From positions 1 to 9,506 of the forward strand of contig NW_021827911.1 in NCBI RefSeq assembly GCF_006345805.1: a stretch of DNA of 9,506 nucleotides. The letters run 5' to 3'. The translations under genes and the position numbers were made by a program. Of this stretch, positions 1 to 9,506 are shown one piece after another (the stretch's first letter is position 1; each line of letters starts with the position of its first letter). This DNA comes from Octopus sinensis (Eukaryota). The notes under the pieces were generated by a model. That model saw nothing but the letters and a program-made list of their open reading frames with translations, made no database searches and was not told the origin of the DNA.

Positions 1-3000
1 TGCCGGCAGATTGTTCCATGCTTGCGTGTGTATGGAGGGGAGAAATCAGGTGTAGTGTTGGTGAATCTCAGGAAAATGGAGTTTTGAAGGATGCAGTGTT
101 CAGACAATTAACAACTGATGCCGGCAGTTTGTTCCATGCTTGCGTGTATGGAGGGGAGGAATCAGGTGTAGTGTTCGTGAATCTCAGGAAGAATGGAAGT
201 TTTGAAGGATGCAGTGCTCAGACAATTAACAACTGATGCCTGCAGTTTTGTTCCATGCTTGATTGTATGGAGGGCAGGAAATCAGGTGTAGTGTTGGTGA
301 ATCTCAGGAAGAATGGAAGTTTTGAAGGATGCAGTGCTCAGACACATAACAACTGATGCCGGCAGGTTGTTCCATGCTTGAGTGTGTAGGAGGGGAGGAA
401 ATCAGGTGTAGTGTTTGAATCTCAGGAAGAATGGAAGTTTTGAAGGATGCAGTGCTCAGACAATTAACAACTGATGCCGGCAGTTTGTTCCATGCTTGAG
501 TGTGTATGGAGGGGAGGAATCAGGTGTAGTGTTGGTGAATCTCAGGAAGAATGGAAGTTTTGAAGGTTGCAGTGCTCAGACAATTAACAACTGATGCCGG
601 CATTTGTTCCATGCTTGCTGTGTATGGAGGGGAGAAATCAGGTGTAGTGTTGGCGAATCTCAGGAAGAATGGAAGTTTTGAAGGATGCCGTGCTCAGACA
701 ATTAACGACTGATGCCGGCAGTTTGTTCCATGCTTGCGTGTGTATGGAGGGAGGAAATCAGGTGTAATGTTGGTGAATCTCAGGAAGAATGGAGTTTTGA
801 AGGATGCAGTGCTCAGACAATTAACAACTGATGCCGGCAGTTTGTTCCATGCTTGCGTGTGTATGGAGGGGAGGAAATCAGGTGGTAGTGTTGGGTGATC
901 TCAGGAAGAATGGAAGTTTTGAAGGATGCAGTGCTCAGACACATTAACAACTGATGCCGGCAGTTTTGTTCCATGCTTGAGTGTGTATGGAGGGGAGGAA
1001 ATCAGGTGTAGTGTTGGTGAATCTCAGAAGAATGGAAGTTTTGAAGGATGCAGTGCTCAGACAATTAACAACTGATGCCGGCAGTTTGTTCCATGCTTGA
1101 GTGTGTATGGAGGGGAGAAATCAGGTGTAGTGTTGGTGAATCTCAGAAGAATGGAAGTTTTGAAGGATGCAGTGCTCAGAACAATTAACAACTGATGCCG
1201 GCAGTTTGTTCATGCTTGAGTGTGTATGGAGGGGAGGAAATCAGGTGTACGTTGTTGGTGATCTCAGGAAGAATGGACGTTTTGAAGGTTGCAGTGCTCA
1301 GACAATTAACAACTGATGCCGGCATTTGGTTCCATGCTTGCGTGTGTATGGAGGGGAGGAAATCAGGTGTAGTGTTGGCGAATCTCTCAGAAGAATGGAA
1401 GTTTTGAAGGATGCAGTGCTCAGACAATTAACAACTGATGCCGGCAGTTTGTTCCATGCTTGAGTGTGTATGGAGGGGCGGAAATCAGGTGTAGTGTTGG
1501 TGAATCTCAGGAAGAATGGAAGTTTTGAAGGATGCAGTGCTCAGACAATTAACAACTGATGCCGGCAGTTTGTTCCATGCTTGCGTGTGTATGGAGGGAG
1601 GAAATCAGGTGTAGTGTTGGTGAATCTCAGGAAGAATGGAAGTTTTGAAGGATGCAGTTCTCAGACAATTAACAACTGATGCCGGCAGTTTGTTCCATGC
1701 TTGCGTGTGTATGGAGGGGAGGAAATCAGGTGTAGTGTTGGTGAATATCAGGAAGAATGGAAGTTTTGAAGGATGCAGTGCTGCAACCACTAACAACTGA
1801 TGCCGGCAGTTTGTTCCATGCTTGAGTGTGTATGGAGGGGAGGAAATCAGGTGTAGTGTTGGTGAATCTCAGGAAGAATGGAAGTTTTGAAGGATGCAGT
1901 GCTCAGACAATTAACAACTGATGCCAGCAGTTTGTTCCAAGCTTGAGTGTGTATGGAGGGGAGGAAATCAGGTGTAGTGTTGGTGAATCTCAGGAAGAAT
2001 GGAAGTTTTGAAGGATGCAGTGCTCAGACAATTAAACTGATGCCGGCAGTTTTGTCCTATGCTTGAGTGTGTATGGAGGGGAGGAAATCAGGTGTAGTGT
2101 TGGTGAATCTCAGGAAGAATGGAAGTTTTGAGGATGCAGTGCTCAGACAATTACAACTGATGCCGGCAGTTTGTTTCATGCTTGAGTGTGTATGGAGGGG
2201 AGGAAATCAGTGTGTAGTGTTGGTGAATCACAGGAAGAATGGAAGTTTTGAAGGATGCAGTGCTCAGACAATTAACAACTGATGCCGGCAGTTTGTTCCA
2301 TGCTTGAGTGTGTATGGAGGGGAGGAATCAGGTTGTAGTGTTGGTGAATCTCAGGAAGATGGAAGTTTTGAAGATGCAGTGCTCAGACAATTAACACTGA
2401 TGCCGGGCATTTTGTTCCATGCTTGAGTGTGTATGGAGGGGAGGAAATCAGGTTTAGTTTTGGTGAATCACAGGAAGAATGGAAGTTTTGAAGGATGCAG
2501 TGCTCAGACAATTAACAACTGATGCCGGCAGTTTGTTCCATGCTTGAGTTTGTATGGAGGGGAGGAAATCAGGTGTAGTGTTGGTGAATCTCAGGAAGAA
2601 TGGAAATTTTGAAGGATGCAGTGCTCAGACTATTAACAACTGATGCCGGCAGTTTGTTCCATGCTTGCGTGTGTATGGAGGGGAGGAAATCAGGTGTAGT
2701 GTTGGTGAATCTCAGGAAGGATGGAAGTTTTGAAGGATGCAGTGCTCAGACAATTAACAACTGATGCCGGCAGTTTGTTCCATGCTTGAGTGTGTATGGA
2801 GGGGAGGAAATCAGGTGTAGTGTTGGTGAATCTCAGGAAGAATGGATGTTTTGAAGGATGCAGTGCTCAGACAATTGACAACTGATGCCGGCAGTTTGTT
2901 CCATGCTTGCGTGTGTATGGAGGGGAGGAAATCAGGTGTAGTGTTGGTGAATCTCAGGAAGAATGGAAGTTTTGAAGGATGCAGTGCTCAGACAATTAAC

Positions 3001-4138
3001 AACTGATGCCGGCAGTTTGTTCCATGCTTGAGTCTGTATGGAGGGGAGGAAATCAGGTGTAGTGTTGGTGAATCTCATGAAGAATGGAAGTTTTGAAGAA
3101 TGCAGTGCTCAGACATTAAACACTGATGCCGGCAGTTTGTTCCATGCTTGCGTGTGTATGGAGGGGAGGAAATCAGGTGTAGTTTTGGTGAATCTCAGGG
3201 AGAATGGAAGTTTTGAAGGATGCAGTGCTCAGACAATTAACAACTGATGCCGGCAGTTTGTTCCATGCTTGCGTGTGTATGGAGGGGAGGAAATCAGGTG
3301 TAGTGTTGGTGAATCTCAGGAAGAATGGAAGTTTTGAAGGATGCAGTGCTCAGACAATTAACAACTGATGCCGGCAGTTTGTTCCATGCTTGCGTGTGTA
3401 TGGAGGGGAGGAAATCAGGTGTAGTGTTGGTGAATCTCAGGAAGGATGGAAGTTTTGAAGGATGCAGTGCTCAGACAATTAACAACTGATGCCGGCAGTT
3501 TGTTCCATGCTTGAGTGTGTATGGAGGGGAGGAAATCAGGTGTAGTGTTGGTGAATCTCAGGAAGAATGGAAGTTTTGAAGGATGCAGTGCTCAGACAAT
3601 TAACAAACTGATCCGGCAGTTTGTTCCATGCTTGCTTTGGTATGGAGGGGAGGAAATCAGGTGTAGTGTTGGTGAATCTCAGGAGGATGGAAGTTTTGAA
3701 GGATGCAGTGCTCAGACAATTAACAACTGATGCCGGCAGTTTGTTCCATGCTTGCGTGTGTATGGAGGGGAGGAAATCAGTGTAGTGTTGGTGAATCTCA
3801 GGAAGAATGGAAGTTTTGAAGGATGCAGTGCTCAGACACCATTAACAACTGATGCCGGCAGTTTTGTTCCATGCTTGAGTGTGTATGGAGGGGGGAAATC
3901 AGGTGTAGTGTTGGTGAATCTCAGGAAGGATGGAATTTTGAAGGATGCAGTGCTCACAACAATTAACAACTGATGCCGGCAGTTTGTTCCATGCTTGAGT
4001 TGTATTAGGGGAGGAAATCAGGTGTATTGTTGGTGAATCTCAGGAAGAATGGAAGTTTTGAAGGATGCAGTGCTGCAACCACTAACAACTGATGCCGGCA
4101 GTTTGTTCCATGCTTGAGTGTGTATGGAGGGGAGGAAA

Positions 4139-4258
4139 TCAGGTGTAGTGTTGGTGAATCTCAGGAAGAATGGAAGTTTTGAAGGATGCAGTGCTGCAAC
4201 CACTAACAACTGATGCCGGCAGTTTGTTCCATGCTTGAGTGTGTATGGAGGGGAGGAA
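4139..4258 (-). repeat. Representative subtype B monomer (GTGCT-GCAACCAC-TAAC in place of GTGCT-CAGACAAT-TAAC)
   Basis: An 8-bp block differing at 5 positions, seen in 14 monomers (15, 34-37, 40, 43, 47-50, 53, 56, 72). The minus-strand frame reads SVVSGCSTASFK instead of SVVNCLSTASFK. Confidence 0.95.
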
Positions 4259-4622
4259 ATCAGGTGTAGTGTTGGTGAATCTCAGGAAGGATGGAAGTTT
4301 TGAAGGATGCAGTGCTGCAACCACTAACAACTGATGCCGGCAGTTTGTTCCATGCTTGAGTGTGTATGGAGGGGAGGAAATCAGGTGTAGTGTTGGTGAA
4401 TCTCAGGAAGAATGGAAGTTTTGAAGGATGCAGTGCTGCAACCACTAACAACTGATGCCGGCAGTTTGTTCCATGCTTGAGTGTGTATGGAGGGGAGGAA
4501 ATCAGGTGTAGTGTTGGTGAATCTCAGGAAGAATGGAAGTTTTGAAGGATGCAGTACTCAGACAATTACCAACTGATGCTGGCAGTTTGTTCCATGCTTG
4601 CGTGTGTATGGAGGGGAGGAAA

Positions 4623-4742
4623 TCAGGTGTAGTGTTGGTGAATCTCAGGAAGGATGGAAGTTTTGAAGGATGCAGTGCTCAGACAATTAACAACTGATGC
4701 CGGCAGTTTGTTCCATGCTTGAGTGTGTATGGAGGGGAGGAA
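4623..4742 (-). mobile_element. Representative monomer (subtype A): remnant of a non-LTR retrotransposon (CR1/L2-group LINE) ORF2 C-terminus with stop codon; the same fragment is present in every monomer
   Basis: The minus strand translates to FLPSIHTQAWNKLPASVVNCLSTASFKTSILPEIHQHYT*. This resembles the conserved tail after the RT domain of CR1/L2-group ORF2 proteins (SF.P....WN.LP..V....S...FK..L). Recognised by motif only; no database search was run. Confidence 0.75.
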
Positions 4743-6896
4743 ATCAGGTGTAGTGTTGGTGAATCTCAGGAAGAATGGAAGTTTTGAAGGATGCAGTGCT
4801 GCAACCACTAACAACTGATGCCGGCAGTTTGTTCCATGCTTGAGTTTTATGTTGAGTGTTCTGTGGACTTGGTAGCTGATTGGAATGGAGGAAATCAGGT
4901 TTAGTGTTGGTGAACTCAGGAAGAATGGAAGTTTTGAAGGATGCAGTGCTCAGACAATTAACAACTGATGCCGGCAGTTTGTTCCATGCTTGCGTGTGTA
5001 TGGAGGGGAGGAAATCAGGTGTAGTGTTGTGAATCTCAGGAAGGATGGAAGTTTTGAAGGATGCAGTGCTCAGACAATAACAACTGATGCCGGCAGTTTG
5101 TTCCATGCTAGAGTGTGTATGGAGGGGAGGAAATCAGGTGTAGTGTTGGTGAATCTCAGGAAGAATGGAAGTTTTGAAGGATGCATGCTGCAACCATACA
5201 ACTGATGCCGGCAGTTTGTTCCATGCTTGCGTGTGTATGGAGGGGAGGAAATCAGGTGTAGTGTTTGGTGAACTCAGGAAGGATGGAAGTTTTGAAGGAT
5301 GCAGTGCTCAGACAATTAACAACTGATGCCGGCAGTTTGTTCCATGCTTGCGTGTGTAATGGAGGGGAGGAAATCAGGTTAGTGTTTGAATCTCAGGAAG
5401 AATGGAAGTTTTGAAGGATGCAGTGCTCAGACAATTAACAACTGATGCCGGCAGTTTTTCCATGCTTGAGTGTGTATGGAGGGGAGGAAATCAGGTGTAG
5501 TGTTGGTGAATCTCAGAAGGATGGAAGTTTTGAAGGATGCAGTGCTCACAACAATTAACAACTGATGCCGGCAGTTGTTCCATGCTTGAGTGTGTATGGA
5601 GGGGAGGAAATCAGGTGTAGTGTTGGTGAATCTCAGGAAGAATGGAAGTTTTGAAGGATGCAGTGCTGCAACCCTACAACTGATGCCGGCAGTTTGTTCC
5701 ATGCTTGAGTGTGTATGGAGGGGAGGAAATCAGGTGTAGTGTTGGTGAATCTCAGGAAGAATGGAAGTTTTGAAGGATGCAGTGCTGCAACCACTAACAA
5801 CTGATGCCGGCAGTTTGTTCCATGCTTGAGTGTGTATGGAGGGGAGGAAATCAGGTGTAGTGTTGGTGAATCTCAGGAAGATGGAAGTTTTGAAGGATGC
5901 AGTGCTGCAACCACTAACAACTGATGCCGGCAGTTTGTTCCATGCTTGAGTGTGTATGGAGGGGAGGAAATCAGGTGTAGTGTTGGTGAATCTCAGGAAG
6001 AATGGAAGTTTTGAAGGATGCAGTGCTGCAACCACTAACAACTGATGCCGGCAGTTTGTTCCATGCTTGAGTGTGTATGGAGGGGAGGAAATCAGGTGTA
6101 GTGTTGGTGAATCTCAGGAAGAATGGAAGTTTTGAAGGATGCAGTGCTCAGACAATTAACAACTGATGCTGGCAGTTTGTTCCATGCTTGCGTGTGTATG
6201 GAGGGGAGGAAATCAGGTGTAGTGTTGGTGAATCTCAGGAAGGATGGAAGTTTTGAAGGATGCAGTGCTCAGACAATTAACAACTGATGCCGGCAGTTTG
6301 TTCCATGCTTGAGTGTGTATGGAGGGGAGGAAATCAGGTGTAGTGGTGGTTGAATCTCAGGAAGAATGGAAGTTTTGAAGGATGCAGTGCTGCAACCACT
6401 AACAACTGATGCCGGCAGTTTGTTCCATGCTTGAGTGTGTATGGAGGGGAGGAAATCAGGTGTAGTGTTGGTGAATCTCAGGAAGAATGGAAGTTTTGAA
6501 GATGATGCAGTGCTCAGACATTAACAACTGATGCCGGCAGTTTGTTCCATGCTTGCGTGTGTAGATGGAGGGGAGGAAATCAGGTGTAGTGTTGGTGAAT
6601 CTCAGGAAGGATGGAAGTTTTGAAGGATGCAGTGCTCAGACAATTAACAACTGATGCCGGCAGTTTGTTCCATGCTAGAGTGTGTATGGAGGGGAGGAAA
6701 TCAGGTGTAGTGTTGGTGAATCTCAGGAAGAATGGAAGTTTTGAAGGATGCAGTGCTGCAACCACTAACAACTGATGCCGGCAGTTTGTTCCATGCTTGC
6801 GTGTGTATGGAGGGGAGGAAATCAGGTGTAGTGTTGGTGAATCTCAGGAAAAATGGAAGTTTTGAAGGATGCAGTGCTCAGACAATTAACAACTGA

Positions 6897-9506
6897 TGCC
6901 GGCAGTTTGTTCCATGCTTGCGTGTGTATGGAGGGGAGGAAATCAGGTGTAGTGTTGGTGAATCTCAGGAAGAATGGAAGTTTTGAAGGATGCAGTGCTC
7001 AGACAATTAACAACTGATGCCGGCAGTTTGTTCCATGCTTGCGTGTGTATGGAGGGGAGGAAATCAGGTGTAGTGTTCGTGAATCTCAGGAAGAATGGAA
7101 GTTTTGAAGGATGCAGTGCTCAGACAATTAACAACTGATGCCGGCAGATTGTTCCATGCTTGAGTGTGTATGGAGGGGAGGAAATCAGGTGTAGTGTTGG
7201 TGAATCTCAGGAAGAATGGAAGTTTTGAAGGATGCAGTGCTCAGACAATTAACAACTGATGCCGGCAGTTTGTTCCATGCTTGAGTGTGTATGGAGGGGA
7301 GGAAATCAGGTGTAGTGTTGGTGAATCTCAGGAAGAATGGAAGTTTTGAAGGATGCAGTGCTCAGACAATTAACAACTGATTCCGGCAGTTTGTTCCATG
7401 CTTGAGTGTGTATAGAGGGGAGGAAATCAGGTGTAGTGTTGGTGAATCTCAGGAAGAATGGAAGTTTTGAAGGTTGCAGTGCTCAGACAATTAACAACTG
7501 ATGCCGGCAGTTTGTTCCATGCTTGCGTGTGTATGGAGGGGAGGAAATCAGGTGTAGTGTTGGCGAATCTCAGGAAGAATGGAAGTTTTGAAGGATGCAG
7601 TGCTCAGACAATGAACAACTGATGCCGGCAGTTTGTTCCATGCTTGCATGTGTATGGAGGGGAGGAAATCAGGTGTAGTGTTGGTGAATCTCAGGAAGAA
7701 TGGAAGTTTTGAAGGATGCAGTGCTCAGACAATTAACAACTGATGCCGGCAGTTTGTTCCATGCTTGCGTGTGTATGGAGGGGAGGAAATCAGGTGTAGT
7801 GTTGGTGAATCTCAGGAAGAATGGAAGTTTTGAAGGATGCAGTGCTCAGACAATTAACAACTGATGCCGGCAGTTTGTTCCATGCTTGAGTGTGTATGGA
7901 GGGGAGGAAATCAGGTGTAGTGTTGGTGAATCTCAGGAAGAATGGAAGTTTTGAAGGATGCAGTGCTCAGACAATTAACAACTGATGCCGGCAGTTTGTT
8001 CCATGCTTGAGTGTGTATGGAGGGGAGGAAATCAGGTGTAGTGTTGGTGAATCTCAGGAAGAATGGAAGTTTTGAAGGATGCAGTGCTCAGACAATTAAA
8101 ACTGTAAGGCTGATGCCGGCAGTTTGTTCCATGCTTGAGTGTGTATGGAGGGGAGGAAATCAGGTGTAGTGTTGGTGAATCTCAGGAAGAATGGACGTTT
8201 TGAAGGTTGCAGTGCTCAGACAATTAACAACTGATGCCGGCAGTTTGTTCCATGCTTGCGTGTGTATGGAGGGGAGGAAATCAGGTGTAGTGTTGGCGAA
8301 TCTCAGGAAGAATGGAAGTTTTGAAGGATGCAGTGCTCAGACAATTAACAACTGATGCCGGCAGTTTGTTCCATGCTTGAGTGTGTATGGAGGGGCGGAA
8401 ATCAGGTGTAGTGTTGGTGAATCTCAGGAAGAATGGAAGTTTTGAAGGATGCAGTGCTCAGACAATTAACAACTGATGCCGGCAGTTTGTTCCATGCTTG
8501 CGTGTGTATGGAGGGAGGAAATCAGGTGTAGTGTTGGTGAATCTCAGGAAGAATGGAAGTTTTGAAGGATGCAGTTCTCAGACAATTAACACTGATGCCG
8601 GCAGTTTGTTCCATGCTTGCGTGTTGTATGGAGGGTAGGAAATCAGGTGTAGTGTTGGTGAATATCAGGAAGAATGGAAGTTTTGAAGGATGCAGTGCTG
8701 CAACCACTACCACTGATGCCGGCAGTTTTGTTCCATGCTTGAGGGTGTATGGAGGGGAGGAAATCAGGTGTAGTGTTGGTGAATCTCAGGAAGAAGGAAG
8801 TTTTGAAGGATGCAGTGCTCAGAACAATAACAACTGATGCCAGCAGTTTGTTCCAAGCTTGAGTGTGTATGGAGGGGAGGAAATCAGGTGTAGGGTTGGT
8901 GAATCTCAGGAAGAATGGAAGTTTTGAAGGATGCAGTGCTCAGACAATTAACAACTGATGCCGGCTGTTTGTTCTATGCTTGAGTGTGTATGGAGGGGAG
9001 GAAATCAGGTGTAGTGTTGGTGAATCTCAGGAAGAATGGAAGTTTTGAAGGATGCAGTGCTCAGACAATTAACAACTGATGCCGGCAGTTTGTTCCATGC
9101 TTGAGTGTGTATGGAGGGGAGGAAATCAGGTGTAGTGTTGGTGAATAACAGGAACAATGGAAGTTTTGAAGGATGCAGTGCTCAGACAATTAACAACTGA
9201 TGCCGGCAGTTTGTTCGATGCTTGAGTGTGTATGGAGGGGAGGAAATCAGGTGGAGTGTTGGTGAATCTCAGGAAGAATGGAAGTTTTGAAGGATGCAGT
9301 GCTCAGACAATTAACAACTGATGCCGGCAGTTTGTTCCATGCTTGAGTGTGTATGGAGGGGAGGAAATCAGGTATAGTGTTGGTGAATCACAGGAAGAAT
9401 GGAAGTTTTGAAGGATGCAGTGCTCAGACAATTAACAACTGATGCCGGCAGTTTGTTCCATGCTTGTGTGTGTATGGAGGGGAGGAAATCAGGTGTAGTG
9501 TTGGTG
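6897..9506. repeat. Second, partial copy of the 57-monomer unit (monomers 58-79, matching about 1-2586)
   Basis: Shares the TTCGTG, GGTTGC, GGCGA, GGACG, GGGGCGG, CAGTTCTC, AATATC, subtype B, GCCAGC, TCCAAG and AATCAC variants, and the A/C allele string of monomers 1-21. Confidence 0.93.

What the first reader, a model, noticed from the sequence alone, without database searches (positions are those of the whole stretch)
1..9506. Satellite monomer is the last 39 codons plus stop of a LINE-like ORF2
Seen: on the minus strand the 121-bp unit parses as 1 nt + 39 sense codons + TGA (e.g. 4742->4623), giving FLPSIHTQAWNKLPASVVNCLSTASFKTSILPEIHQHYT*. Established: CR1/L2-group non-LTR retrotransposon ORF2 proteins end in a motif of the form SF(F/L)P....WN.LP..V....S...FK..L, and TE-derived satellites are known. 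Inference: the array was amplified from the 3' coding end of such a LINE, with the unit boundary at or near the stop codon and no evident 3' UTR or tail. FLP-to-WN spacing is one residue longer than I recall as typical, so the true junction could lie inside FLPSIHTQ. A satellite made almost entirely of an RT-protein C-terminal coding segment is unusual and may be an undescribed family.
Basis: partly seen in the sequence, partly recalled or inferred. Interest (0 to 1): 0.8.

Follow-up and report, generated by a model that had tools for sequence, protein, structure and literature searches.

The report
Satellite grown from octopus retrotransposon ends
This window is a tandem repeat made from the tail end of a common retrotransposon of what is likely an octopus; similar arrays sit in dozens of separate copies of that retrotransposon and likely spread between neighbouring copies by recombination, which would give a step-by-step view of how new satellite DNA is born.

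Summary
The window is a 78.5-copy, 121-bp array, and its LINE origin is confirmed. The parent is an endonuclease/reverse-transcriptase LINE with at least 5,743 dispersed 3' ends. FLPSIHTQ is UTR read in frame. No coding constraint was found. Its closest sister arrays sit inside one 5'-truncated insertion with a target-site duplication. Paralogues of that site are empty (6), single-copy (3) or carry 3 to 88 units. A 123-bp sister junction occurs in about two dozen further independent insertions. These are polyphyletic and nearly absent from large scaffolds. Derived markers are scaffold-specific: one has 8 of 10 sites on C26, another 23 of 40 on C29. The best reading is that dispersed LINE ends acquire the tandem junction by local ectopic recombination (inferred) and then expand in place. 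LINE-derived satellites are known (chicken HinfI), so this is a new variant. The value lies in the full birth series and the apparent local spread.

The parts
1..9506 (-). Tandem array of 78.5 units of 121 bp; fills the whole contig G000:C4382, so no flanks are present
4600..4720 (-). One unit in its true phase, from one AAGCATG to the next
4714..4720 (-). 7-bp direct repeat AAGCATG, present in the parent both in ORF2 and 121 bp downstream in the 3' UTR; marks the junction
4623..4720 (-). ORF2-derived part: 2 nt + 31 codons + TGA (stop at 4625-4623)
4600..4622 (-). 3' UTR-derived part (23 nt after the stop)
4721..4743 (-).
1..2589 (.). Block repeated 57 units (about 6.9 kb) away at 6918-9506; higher-order duplication or assembly overlap
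   Evidence: (distance 0.018 at lag 57 against a mean of 0.038)
6918..9506 (.). Second copy of the 57-unit-lag block
4844..4886 (.). Irregular 43-bp stretch in a 151-bp unit; no match in any other fetched locus; possibly a read error

Best explanation
The array is non-coding satellite DNA made of tandem copies of the last 31 codons, stop and first 23 UTR bases of an abundant LINE; it likely grew in place by unequal exchange inside a truncated insertion, and the tandem junction likely passes between dispersed LINE ends by local ectopic recombination. Step 1 (shown): the LINE scattered thousands of 5'-truncated 3' ends. Step 2 (junction shown, mechanism inferred): a strand slipped or switched template at an imperfect direct repeat, GCTGAAGCATG in ORF2 against (G/A)CAAGCATG in the UTR, giving 123-bp or 121-bp duplications. 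Step 3 (series shown, order inferred): one roughly 265-bp insertion with a TATA(AT) target-site duplication lies in a segmentally duplicated region; its paralogues are empty, single, or carry 3 to 88 units. Step 4 (inferred): repair of a break in a LINE end, using a nearby array as template, copies the junction and marker mutations into unrelated insertions, mostly on the same small chromosome. Step 5 (inferred): unequal exchange then expands and homogenises each array, including multi-kilobase block duplications. No protein function is expected.
For: Parent: 27 of 30 fetched UTR hits are dispersed non-array copies with staggered 5' ends. L128 carries endonuclease (PF14529, E 6.8e-12) and RVT_1 (E 5.1e-13) segments. 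There are 5,743 exact hits of a UTR 22-mer, control 0. Host site: 19 of 24 upstream-flank hits are paralogues, 6 empty, 3 single and 10 with arrays. The flank tree needs 3 state changes against a shuffled mean of 8.0. Window units are nearest to host-site arrays C674, C11372b and C13108 (1.1-1.3%, others 3.3% or more). Spread: 26 inspected non-host insertions have arrays, different 5' ends and different flanks. Seventeen of them held as one clade against 22 single copies are rejected (p-AU 0.0005). A 3-bp insertion marker has 8 of 10 placed sites on C26, four arrays and four single copies with unrelated flanks, and is in only some units of two arrays. A 2-bp insertion marker has 23 of 40 placed sites on C29. 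The two markers differ in scaffold (8:1 against 1:23, Fisher p 5.6e-6). A junction variant has both placed sites on C23, 64 kb apart. First and last units are closer within than between arrays (0.031 against 0.043, p 0.001). No synonymous bias among 589 units (Fisher p 0.61 and 0.44).
Against: No conversion event was observed directly. The 2-bp marker also has 17 sites on 12 other scaffolds, and the nine single-hit ones inspected are single copies with similar UTR letters, as a retrotransposing subfamily would leave. Eight of 26 arrays share rare variants between first and last unit, which fits duplication in place just as well. The same-scaffold sharing test falls from p 0.003 to 0.042 when one possibly non-independent array is dropped. 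The LINE tree has 3 of 36 branches well supported, and conversion itself violates its model. In the flank tree the array clade is weak (82/85) and includes two empty sites, so single copies could be contractions. LINE density on small scaffolds was not measured. Pattern listings stop at 100 rows, so the census is incomplete. The window has no flanks, so its assignment to the host site rests on similarity only.
Confidence: 0.62

Rival explanations
1. Several LINE source elements already carried the tandem 3' end and scattered it by retrotransposition, as plant Ogre elements scatter 3' UTR arrays; some insertions later expanded.
For: Most inspected arrays have normal insertion anatomy: staggered 5' end, units, one full UTR and an ATT tail. 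The 123-bp junction is the same across scaffolds, and one copy starts inside a unit (L216). The 2-bp marker occurs in single copies on many scaffolds.
Against: Array-bearing copies show the same polymorphism spectrum as unselected single copies upstream of the unit and largely so in the UTR, and monophyly is rejected. C1 has about 2 LINE ends per Mb (100 in the first 49 Mb), yet C1 and C3-C13 show no exact junction of either type. Different markers favour different chromosomes, which retrotransposition is not known to cause (own knowledge).
Confidence: 0.15
2. The same duplication recurs independently in place at the imperfect direct repeat, more often in high-recombination regions, and nothing is passed between loci.
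For: The repeat is in every parent copy. Both junction types fall on it. Units are closer within than between arrays, and 8 of 26 arrays share rare variants end to end. Polyphyly is expected under this reading.
Against: It does not explain one 3-bp insertion at 8 unrelated C26 sites or one junction mutation in two neighbouring C23 insertions. The G allele that lengthens the repeat is not enriched in the terminal UTR of arrays (7 of 23 against 13 of 27 single copies). A 7-bp direct repeat in 150 nt is unremarkable (233 of 500 shuffles).
Confidence: 0.15
3. The reverse transcriptase jumps back 121-123 nt on its RNA template during insertion and creates the dimer at integration.
For: The common 123-bp junction is what re-priming of an antisense strand across a 2-nt bulge would give (sequence geometry, inference). 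Many arrays have only 2 or 3 units.
Against: It predicts arrays wherever the LINE inserts. Instead 34 of the 40 best UTR hits are on C1-C10, while only 3 of 23 listed 123-bp sites are on C1-C13, all within 0.8 Mb of C2. It does not explain scaffold-specific markers.
Confidence: 0.05
4. The open frame is kept because the unit encodes a functional peptide.
For: 41 of 43 intact-length units keep the 39-codon frame open.
Against: There is no start codon and each unit ends in a stop. Synonymous and non-synonymous changes are seen at equal rates, and 6 of 11 possible stop-gain changes occur among 589 units. The open frame follows from recent origin and about 3.5% divergence.
Confidence: 0.02

Closest known systems
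Chicken HinfI (SCR1) tandem repeat
   Same: Listed as derived from the 3' UTR and partial ORF2 of a CR1 LINE (PMC9659126, passages and table seen; original paper not read).
   Different: Described there as a repeat containing a CR1 piece. Here the whole unit is LINE, and empty, single and expanded alleles are all in one genome.
Common cetacean satellite, PROsat and Pvc 20 (L1-derived)
   Same: Monomers similar to the 3' part or ORF2 of a LINE (PMC9659126, passages seen).
   Different: L1-derived. The passages seen give no series of intermediates and no spread among dispersed copies.
Ogre LTR-retrotransposon 3' UTR arrays in pea and grass pea (PisTR-A; PMC7004042)
   Same: Short tandem arrays inside dispersed retrotransposon copies that sometimes expand into satellites (PMC9659126 passages; PMC7004042 search listing and abstract start only).
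   Different: LTR element and UTR-only repeats, carried by the element itself. Here the array-bearing copies are polyphyletic and locally clustered.
Drosophila Rsp-like spread into 1.688 clusters (PMC7403614)
   Same: Satellite colonises new loci by inserting into existing homologous targets; interlocus conversion or eccDNA reintegration proposed (abstract and section 12 read).
   Different: There the target is an older satellite with microhomology only. Here the targets are thousands of dispersed LINE ends about 95% identical over the whole unit.

Membership tests
APE-type non-LTR retrotransposon (parent element) | ORF2 with endonuclease and reverse transcriptase domains | tested here: met
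   L128 segments hit PF14529/PF03372 and PF00078; the copy is broken by stops and frameshifts
APE-type non-LTR retrotransposon (parent element) | Dispersed copies with variable 5' truncation, a common 3' end and a simple-repeat tail | tested here: met
   Staggered 5' ends and ATT tails in the fetched copies
APE-type non-LTR retrotransposon (parent element) | Target-site duplication | tested here: met
   Empty against filled host sites show TATA(AT) on both sides; tested at this one site only
CR1 group (CR1, L2, Crack, Daphne, Kiri, Rex1 as listed in PMC13343379) | Placement of the RT domain among reference CR1-group elements | not testable with these tools
   No Repbase, Dfam or named reference set was available. 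Named hits carry the generic label 'mobile element jockey-like'. The CR1-like look of the C-terminus is recalled, not tested.
CR1 group | ORF1 type (esterase in vertebrate CR1 and L2 per PMC13343379) | tested here: inconclusive
   The upstream 253-aa frame has no Pfam hit. Atlas look-alikes score under 0.9, some with Baculo_FP domains; a lead only.
Satellite DNA | Long head-to-tail array of a homogenised monomer | tested here: met
   78.5 copies, mean pairwise distance 3.5%, array-specific variants near fixation
Satellite DNA | Large heterochromatic or centromeric blocks | not testable with these tools
   Longest complete array seen is 88 units. Several run off contig ends, so true size is unknown.
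TE-derived satellite | Monomer collinear with a segment of a dispersed element, with mapped breakpoints | tested here: met
   Array edges run into upstream ORF2 and downstream UTR at the same direct repeat
Protein-coding repeat | Purifying selection on the frame | tested here: not met
   No synonymous excess; stop gains present

The most novel reading that the evidence does not exclude
The thousands of dispersed 3' ends of one LINE act as landing pads for a satellite made from that same end. The tandem junction spreads from copy to copy by ectopic recombination within individual small chromosomes, turning unrelated insertions into new arrays with chromosome-specific variants. This would be a self-propagating route from dispersed to tandem repeat, caught at every stage from empty site to multi-kilobase array and shared among related species.
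Probability: 0.5. Interest if true: 0.7.

Novelty: new variant of a known kind. Interest (0 to 1): 0.5.

Why it matters
How a satellite first forms and reaches new loci is usually inferred from end states. Here one genome holds empty, single, short and long alleles of one site, plus many independent seeds with traceable marker mutations. That makes the rival routes (in-place slippage, retrotransposition, ectopic conversion) directly testable with long reads and haplotypes. It also suggests that small octopus chromosomes exchange sequence between dispersed repeats at a high rate. The satellite itself is small in the assembly (518 plus 684 junction matches, roughly 0.15 Mb) and has no shown function.

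Tried and rejected
Pfam on the 39-mer: only DUF3069 at E 0.084, below its cut-off. Rfam on the window and 9 loci: 0 matches. Folding: the window unit and the parent 3' region fold no better than shuffles (z 0.21; z 0.0 and 0.09). The other stretch folded turned out to be the distal UTR (z 1.02). An 11-bp inverted repeat in the parent unit is only marginal (19 of 500 shuffles). The window is not an overlapping copy of C674, C11372b, C13108 or C9098, since no collinear offset gives a near-zero distance; C11372b and C13108 are one array assembled twice. A single array-bearing source element is rejected. Sequencing runs: no RNA holder listed on record, so expression is untested. In run X6, whose RNA status is a guess, summed contig depth is 10-30 times higher over the unit than beside it; no silent-stretch control was laid, so it is not used as evidence. 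The earlier-findings look-up returned nothing. Literature searches returned no description of this family. The repeat libraries deposited with PMC13282606, Repbase and Dfam could not be searched and may hold it.
Full report
Observation. The window is the whole of contig G000:C4382 in a 2.72-Gb assembly. It is one array of 78.5 units of 121 bp. The minus-strand peptide is as quoted. Of 76 stop-to-stop intervals, 43 are 121 bp and 41 of those have one stop; the others carry indels, which may partly be read errors. Mean pairwise substitution distance among 78 units is 3.5%. A block recurs 57 units away (distance 0.018 against 0.038). C674 shows the same kind of signal at lag 70.

Likeness to LINE ORF2. 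I built an HMM from the C-termini of 114 of 116 homologues not named as Octopus, found with the parent ORF and filtered for WNxL. The monomer peptide scores 27.7 bits; 1,000 shuffles reach at most 8.4; the true LINE end scores 39.1. The alignment begins at residue 8, and shuffling the first eight residues changes nothing. So the match is real but FLPSIHTQ is no part of it.

The parent. Array edges in other contigs run upstream into FFTLRVAEAWNKLP-coding sequence and downstream into a UTR of about 150 nt with an ATT tail. A UTR-only search gave 1,174 candidates; of 30 fetched, 27 are dispersed non-array copies with staggered 5' ends and 3 reach beyond 1.5 kb. L128 holds an upstream frame, an endonuclease and an RT, broken by stops and frameshifts. 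An exact UTR 22-mer occurs 5,743 times. The best named relatives are Octopus proteins, up to 88% identical over half the query, so the host is likely an octopus. Single copies differ by 2.4% from column-majority letters, about 7 million years at the rate quoted in PMC13282606 (inference; parts 1 and 2 of 3 read). The unit is 98 nt of ORF2 end and 23 nt of UTR, bounded by AAGCATG, which the parent has once in ORF2 and once in the UTR. The clade was not tested against references; 'CR1 group' is a recalled resemblance.

The host site. Searches with both flanks found 19 paralogues among 24 upstream hits: 6 empty, 3 with a single truncated insertion and 10 with arrays. The duplication TATA(AT) brackets the insertion. 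Unit counts in these and related contigs are 3, 3, 3, 5, 11, 12, 16, 16, 32, 42+, 56+, 58+, 67, 75+ and 88. The shared region extends 10-19 kb, and some pairs are probably redundant haplotigs. In the flank tree, empty sites are basal, single copies next, and arrays form a weak group that also holds two empty sites (3 changes against 8.0 shuffled). Gain followed by growth is favoured, but contraction to one copy is not excluded. Window units are nearest to C674, C11372b and C13108 and carry their derived letters. The window has no flanks, so this link is by similarity. The 121-bp junction has 379 exact matches and 518 with up to two mismatches. On the 30 large scaffolds exact matches lie only on C28 and the first 1.15 Mb of C29; mismatched hits were not listed.

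The wider family. A sister junction 2 bp longer has 684 exact matches. The first 100 rows cover 23 sites: 3 on C2, 20 on C14-C27, none on C1 or C3-C13. I inspected these plus three C28/C29 sites. All 26 have arrays of 2 to 52 units and unrelated flanks, nearly all with their own 5' end, and most end in one UTR and tail. Two more turned up later. Some arrays mix both junctions. Both junctions fall on one imperfect direct repeat, so the 121-bp form may derive from the 123-bp form (inference). In public contig sets both junctions appear in two runs labelled organism B and the 123-bp one in a run of organism C, so they are not artefacts of this assembly.

How the junction reached many copies. Upstream of the unit, array-bearing copies have the same allele spectrum as 30 unselected C1 copies; two UTR columns differ at p about 0.01-0.02 without correction. 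A tree of 17 of 26 arrays and 22 of 30 single copies (rows under 250 filled columns dropped) needs 10 changes, and one clade is rejected (p-AU 0.0005), though support is low. Arrays are closer within than between. Three derived markers are local. A 3-bp insertion has 55 hits: 8 of 10 placed sites are on C26 (0.9% of the assembly), in four arrays and four single copies with different truncations. A 2-bp insertion has 89 hits, with 23 of 40 placed sites on C29. A junction mutation has both placed sites on C23 and also occurs in host-family arrays. The first two markers favour different scaffolds (p 5.6e-6), which a general insertion preference cannot give. Against this: the 2-bp marker can arise repeatedly by slippage and has 17 scattered sites; 8 of 26 arrays share rare variants end to end; and the substitution-sharing test is p 0.003, or 0.042 without one pair. 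I put local ectopic recombination (conversion or circle reintegration, not separable here) at about 0.6.

Function. No selection on the frame was found among 589 units. Transcription is untested.

Comparison and novelty. LINE-derived satellites are known, including chicken HinfI from CR1 ORF2 and 3' UTR (PMC9659126, passages; PMC12628747, passages). Spread into homologous targets is proposed for Drosophila Rsp-like (PMC7403614, abstract and section 12). Arrays inside retrotransposons are known from Ogre (PMC7004042, listing only). PMC13282606 reports recently active CR1 families in O. vulgaris and, in the parts read, no such satellite; PMC8967140 has no occurrence of 'satellite' or 'tandem'. 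PMC4992247 and PMC13343379 were seen as passages. Eight searches found no description of this family; supplements and deposited repeat libraries were not seen and could hold it. Verdict: real, a new variant of a known kind, interest 0.5.

Noticed in passing
G000:C29:1094312 onward against C29:1148k and C172 (L135/L136, L194, L196): The 67-unit host-site array has the same immediate 3' neighbour (a second LINE) as two short arrays with a different 5' flank. This could be a recombinant between arrays or a misassembly through the repeat.
   Followed up: partly
L032:1412-1900 and L031:6900-7380: The host site lies in an older repeat whose two sides match in inverted orientation at about 67%, with 442 candidates genome-wide; foldback or MITE-like.
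   Followed up: no
window, unit position 68 (e.g. 4653): The largest window-type arrays (window 100%, C11372b 91%, C13108 82%, C674 55%) carry a change that breaks the parent's 11-bp internal inverted repeat; chance or stabilisation.
   Followed up: partly
window 4100-6800 mainly: A five-site variant block (reads SGC instead of NCL) marks a subtype in about 14 of 78 units, clustered mid-array.
   Followed up: no
L234 (G000:C23, about 4.954 Mb): A second, 180-bp tandem unit from the same LINE (distal unit plus UTR plus tail, five copies) follows the 123-bp array.
   Followed up: no
G000:C29:13666851-13667086: Marker hits spaced 105 bp apart suggest a further unit length.
   Followed up: no
L034:7766-8786 (C674): The 88-unit array ends in a 5'-truncated insertion of a different RT-coding LINE.
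   Followed up: partly
L037:7793-9883: Two open frames of 340 and 319 aa with no Pfam hit lie upstream of the C9449 host site.
   Followed up: partly
L127:1331-3547: A 739-aa frame of tandem C2H2-type zinc-finger repeats (read by eye) lies 2 kb upstream of a long LINE copy.
   Followed up: no
G000:C2:194-199.3 Mb: The only large-scaffold region with arrays (3 sites) also holds 3 sites of the 2-bp marker; it behaves like the small scaffolds.
   Followed up: no
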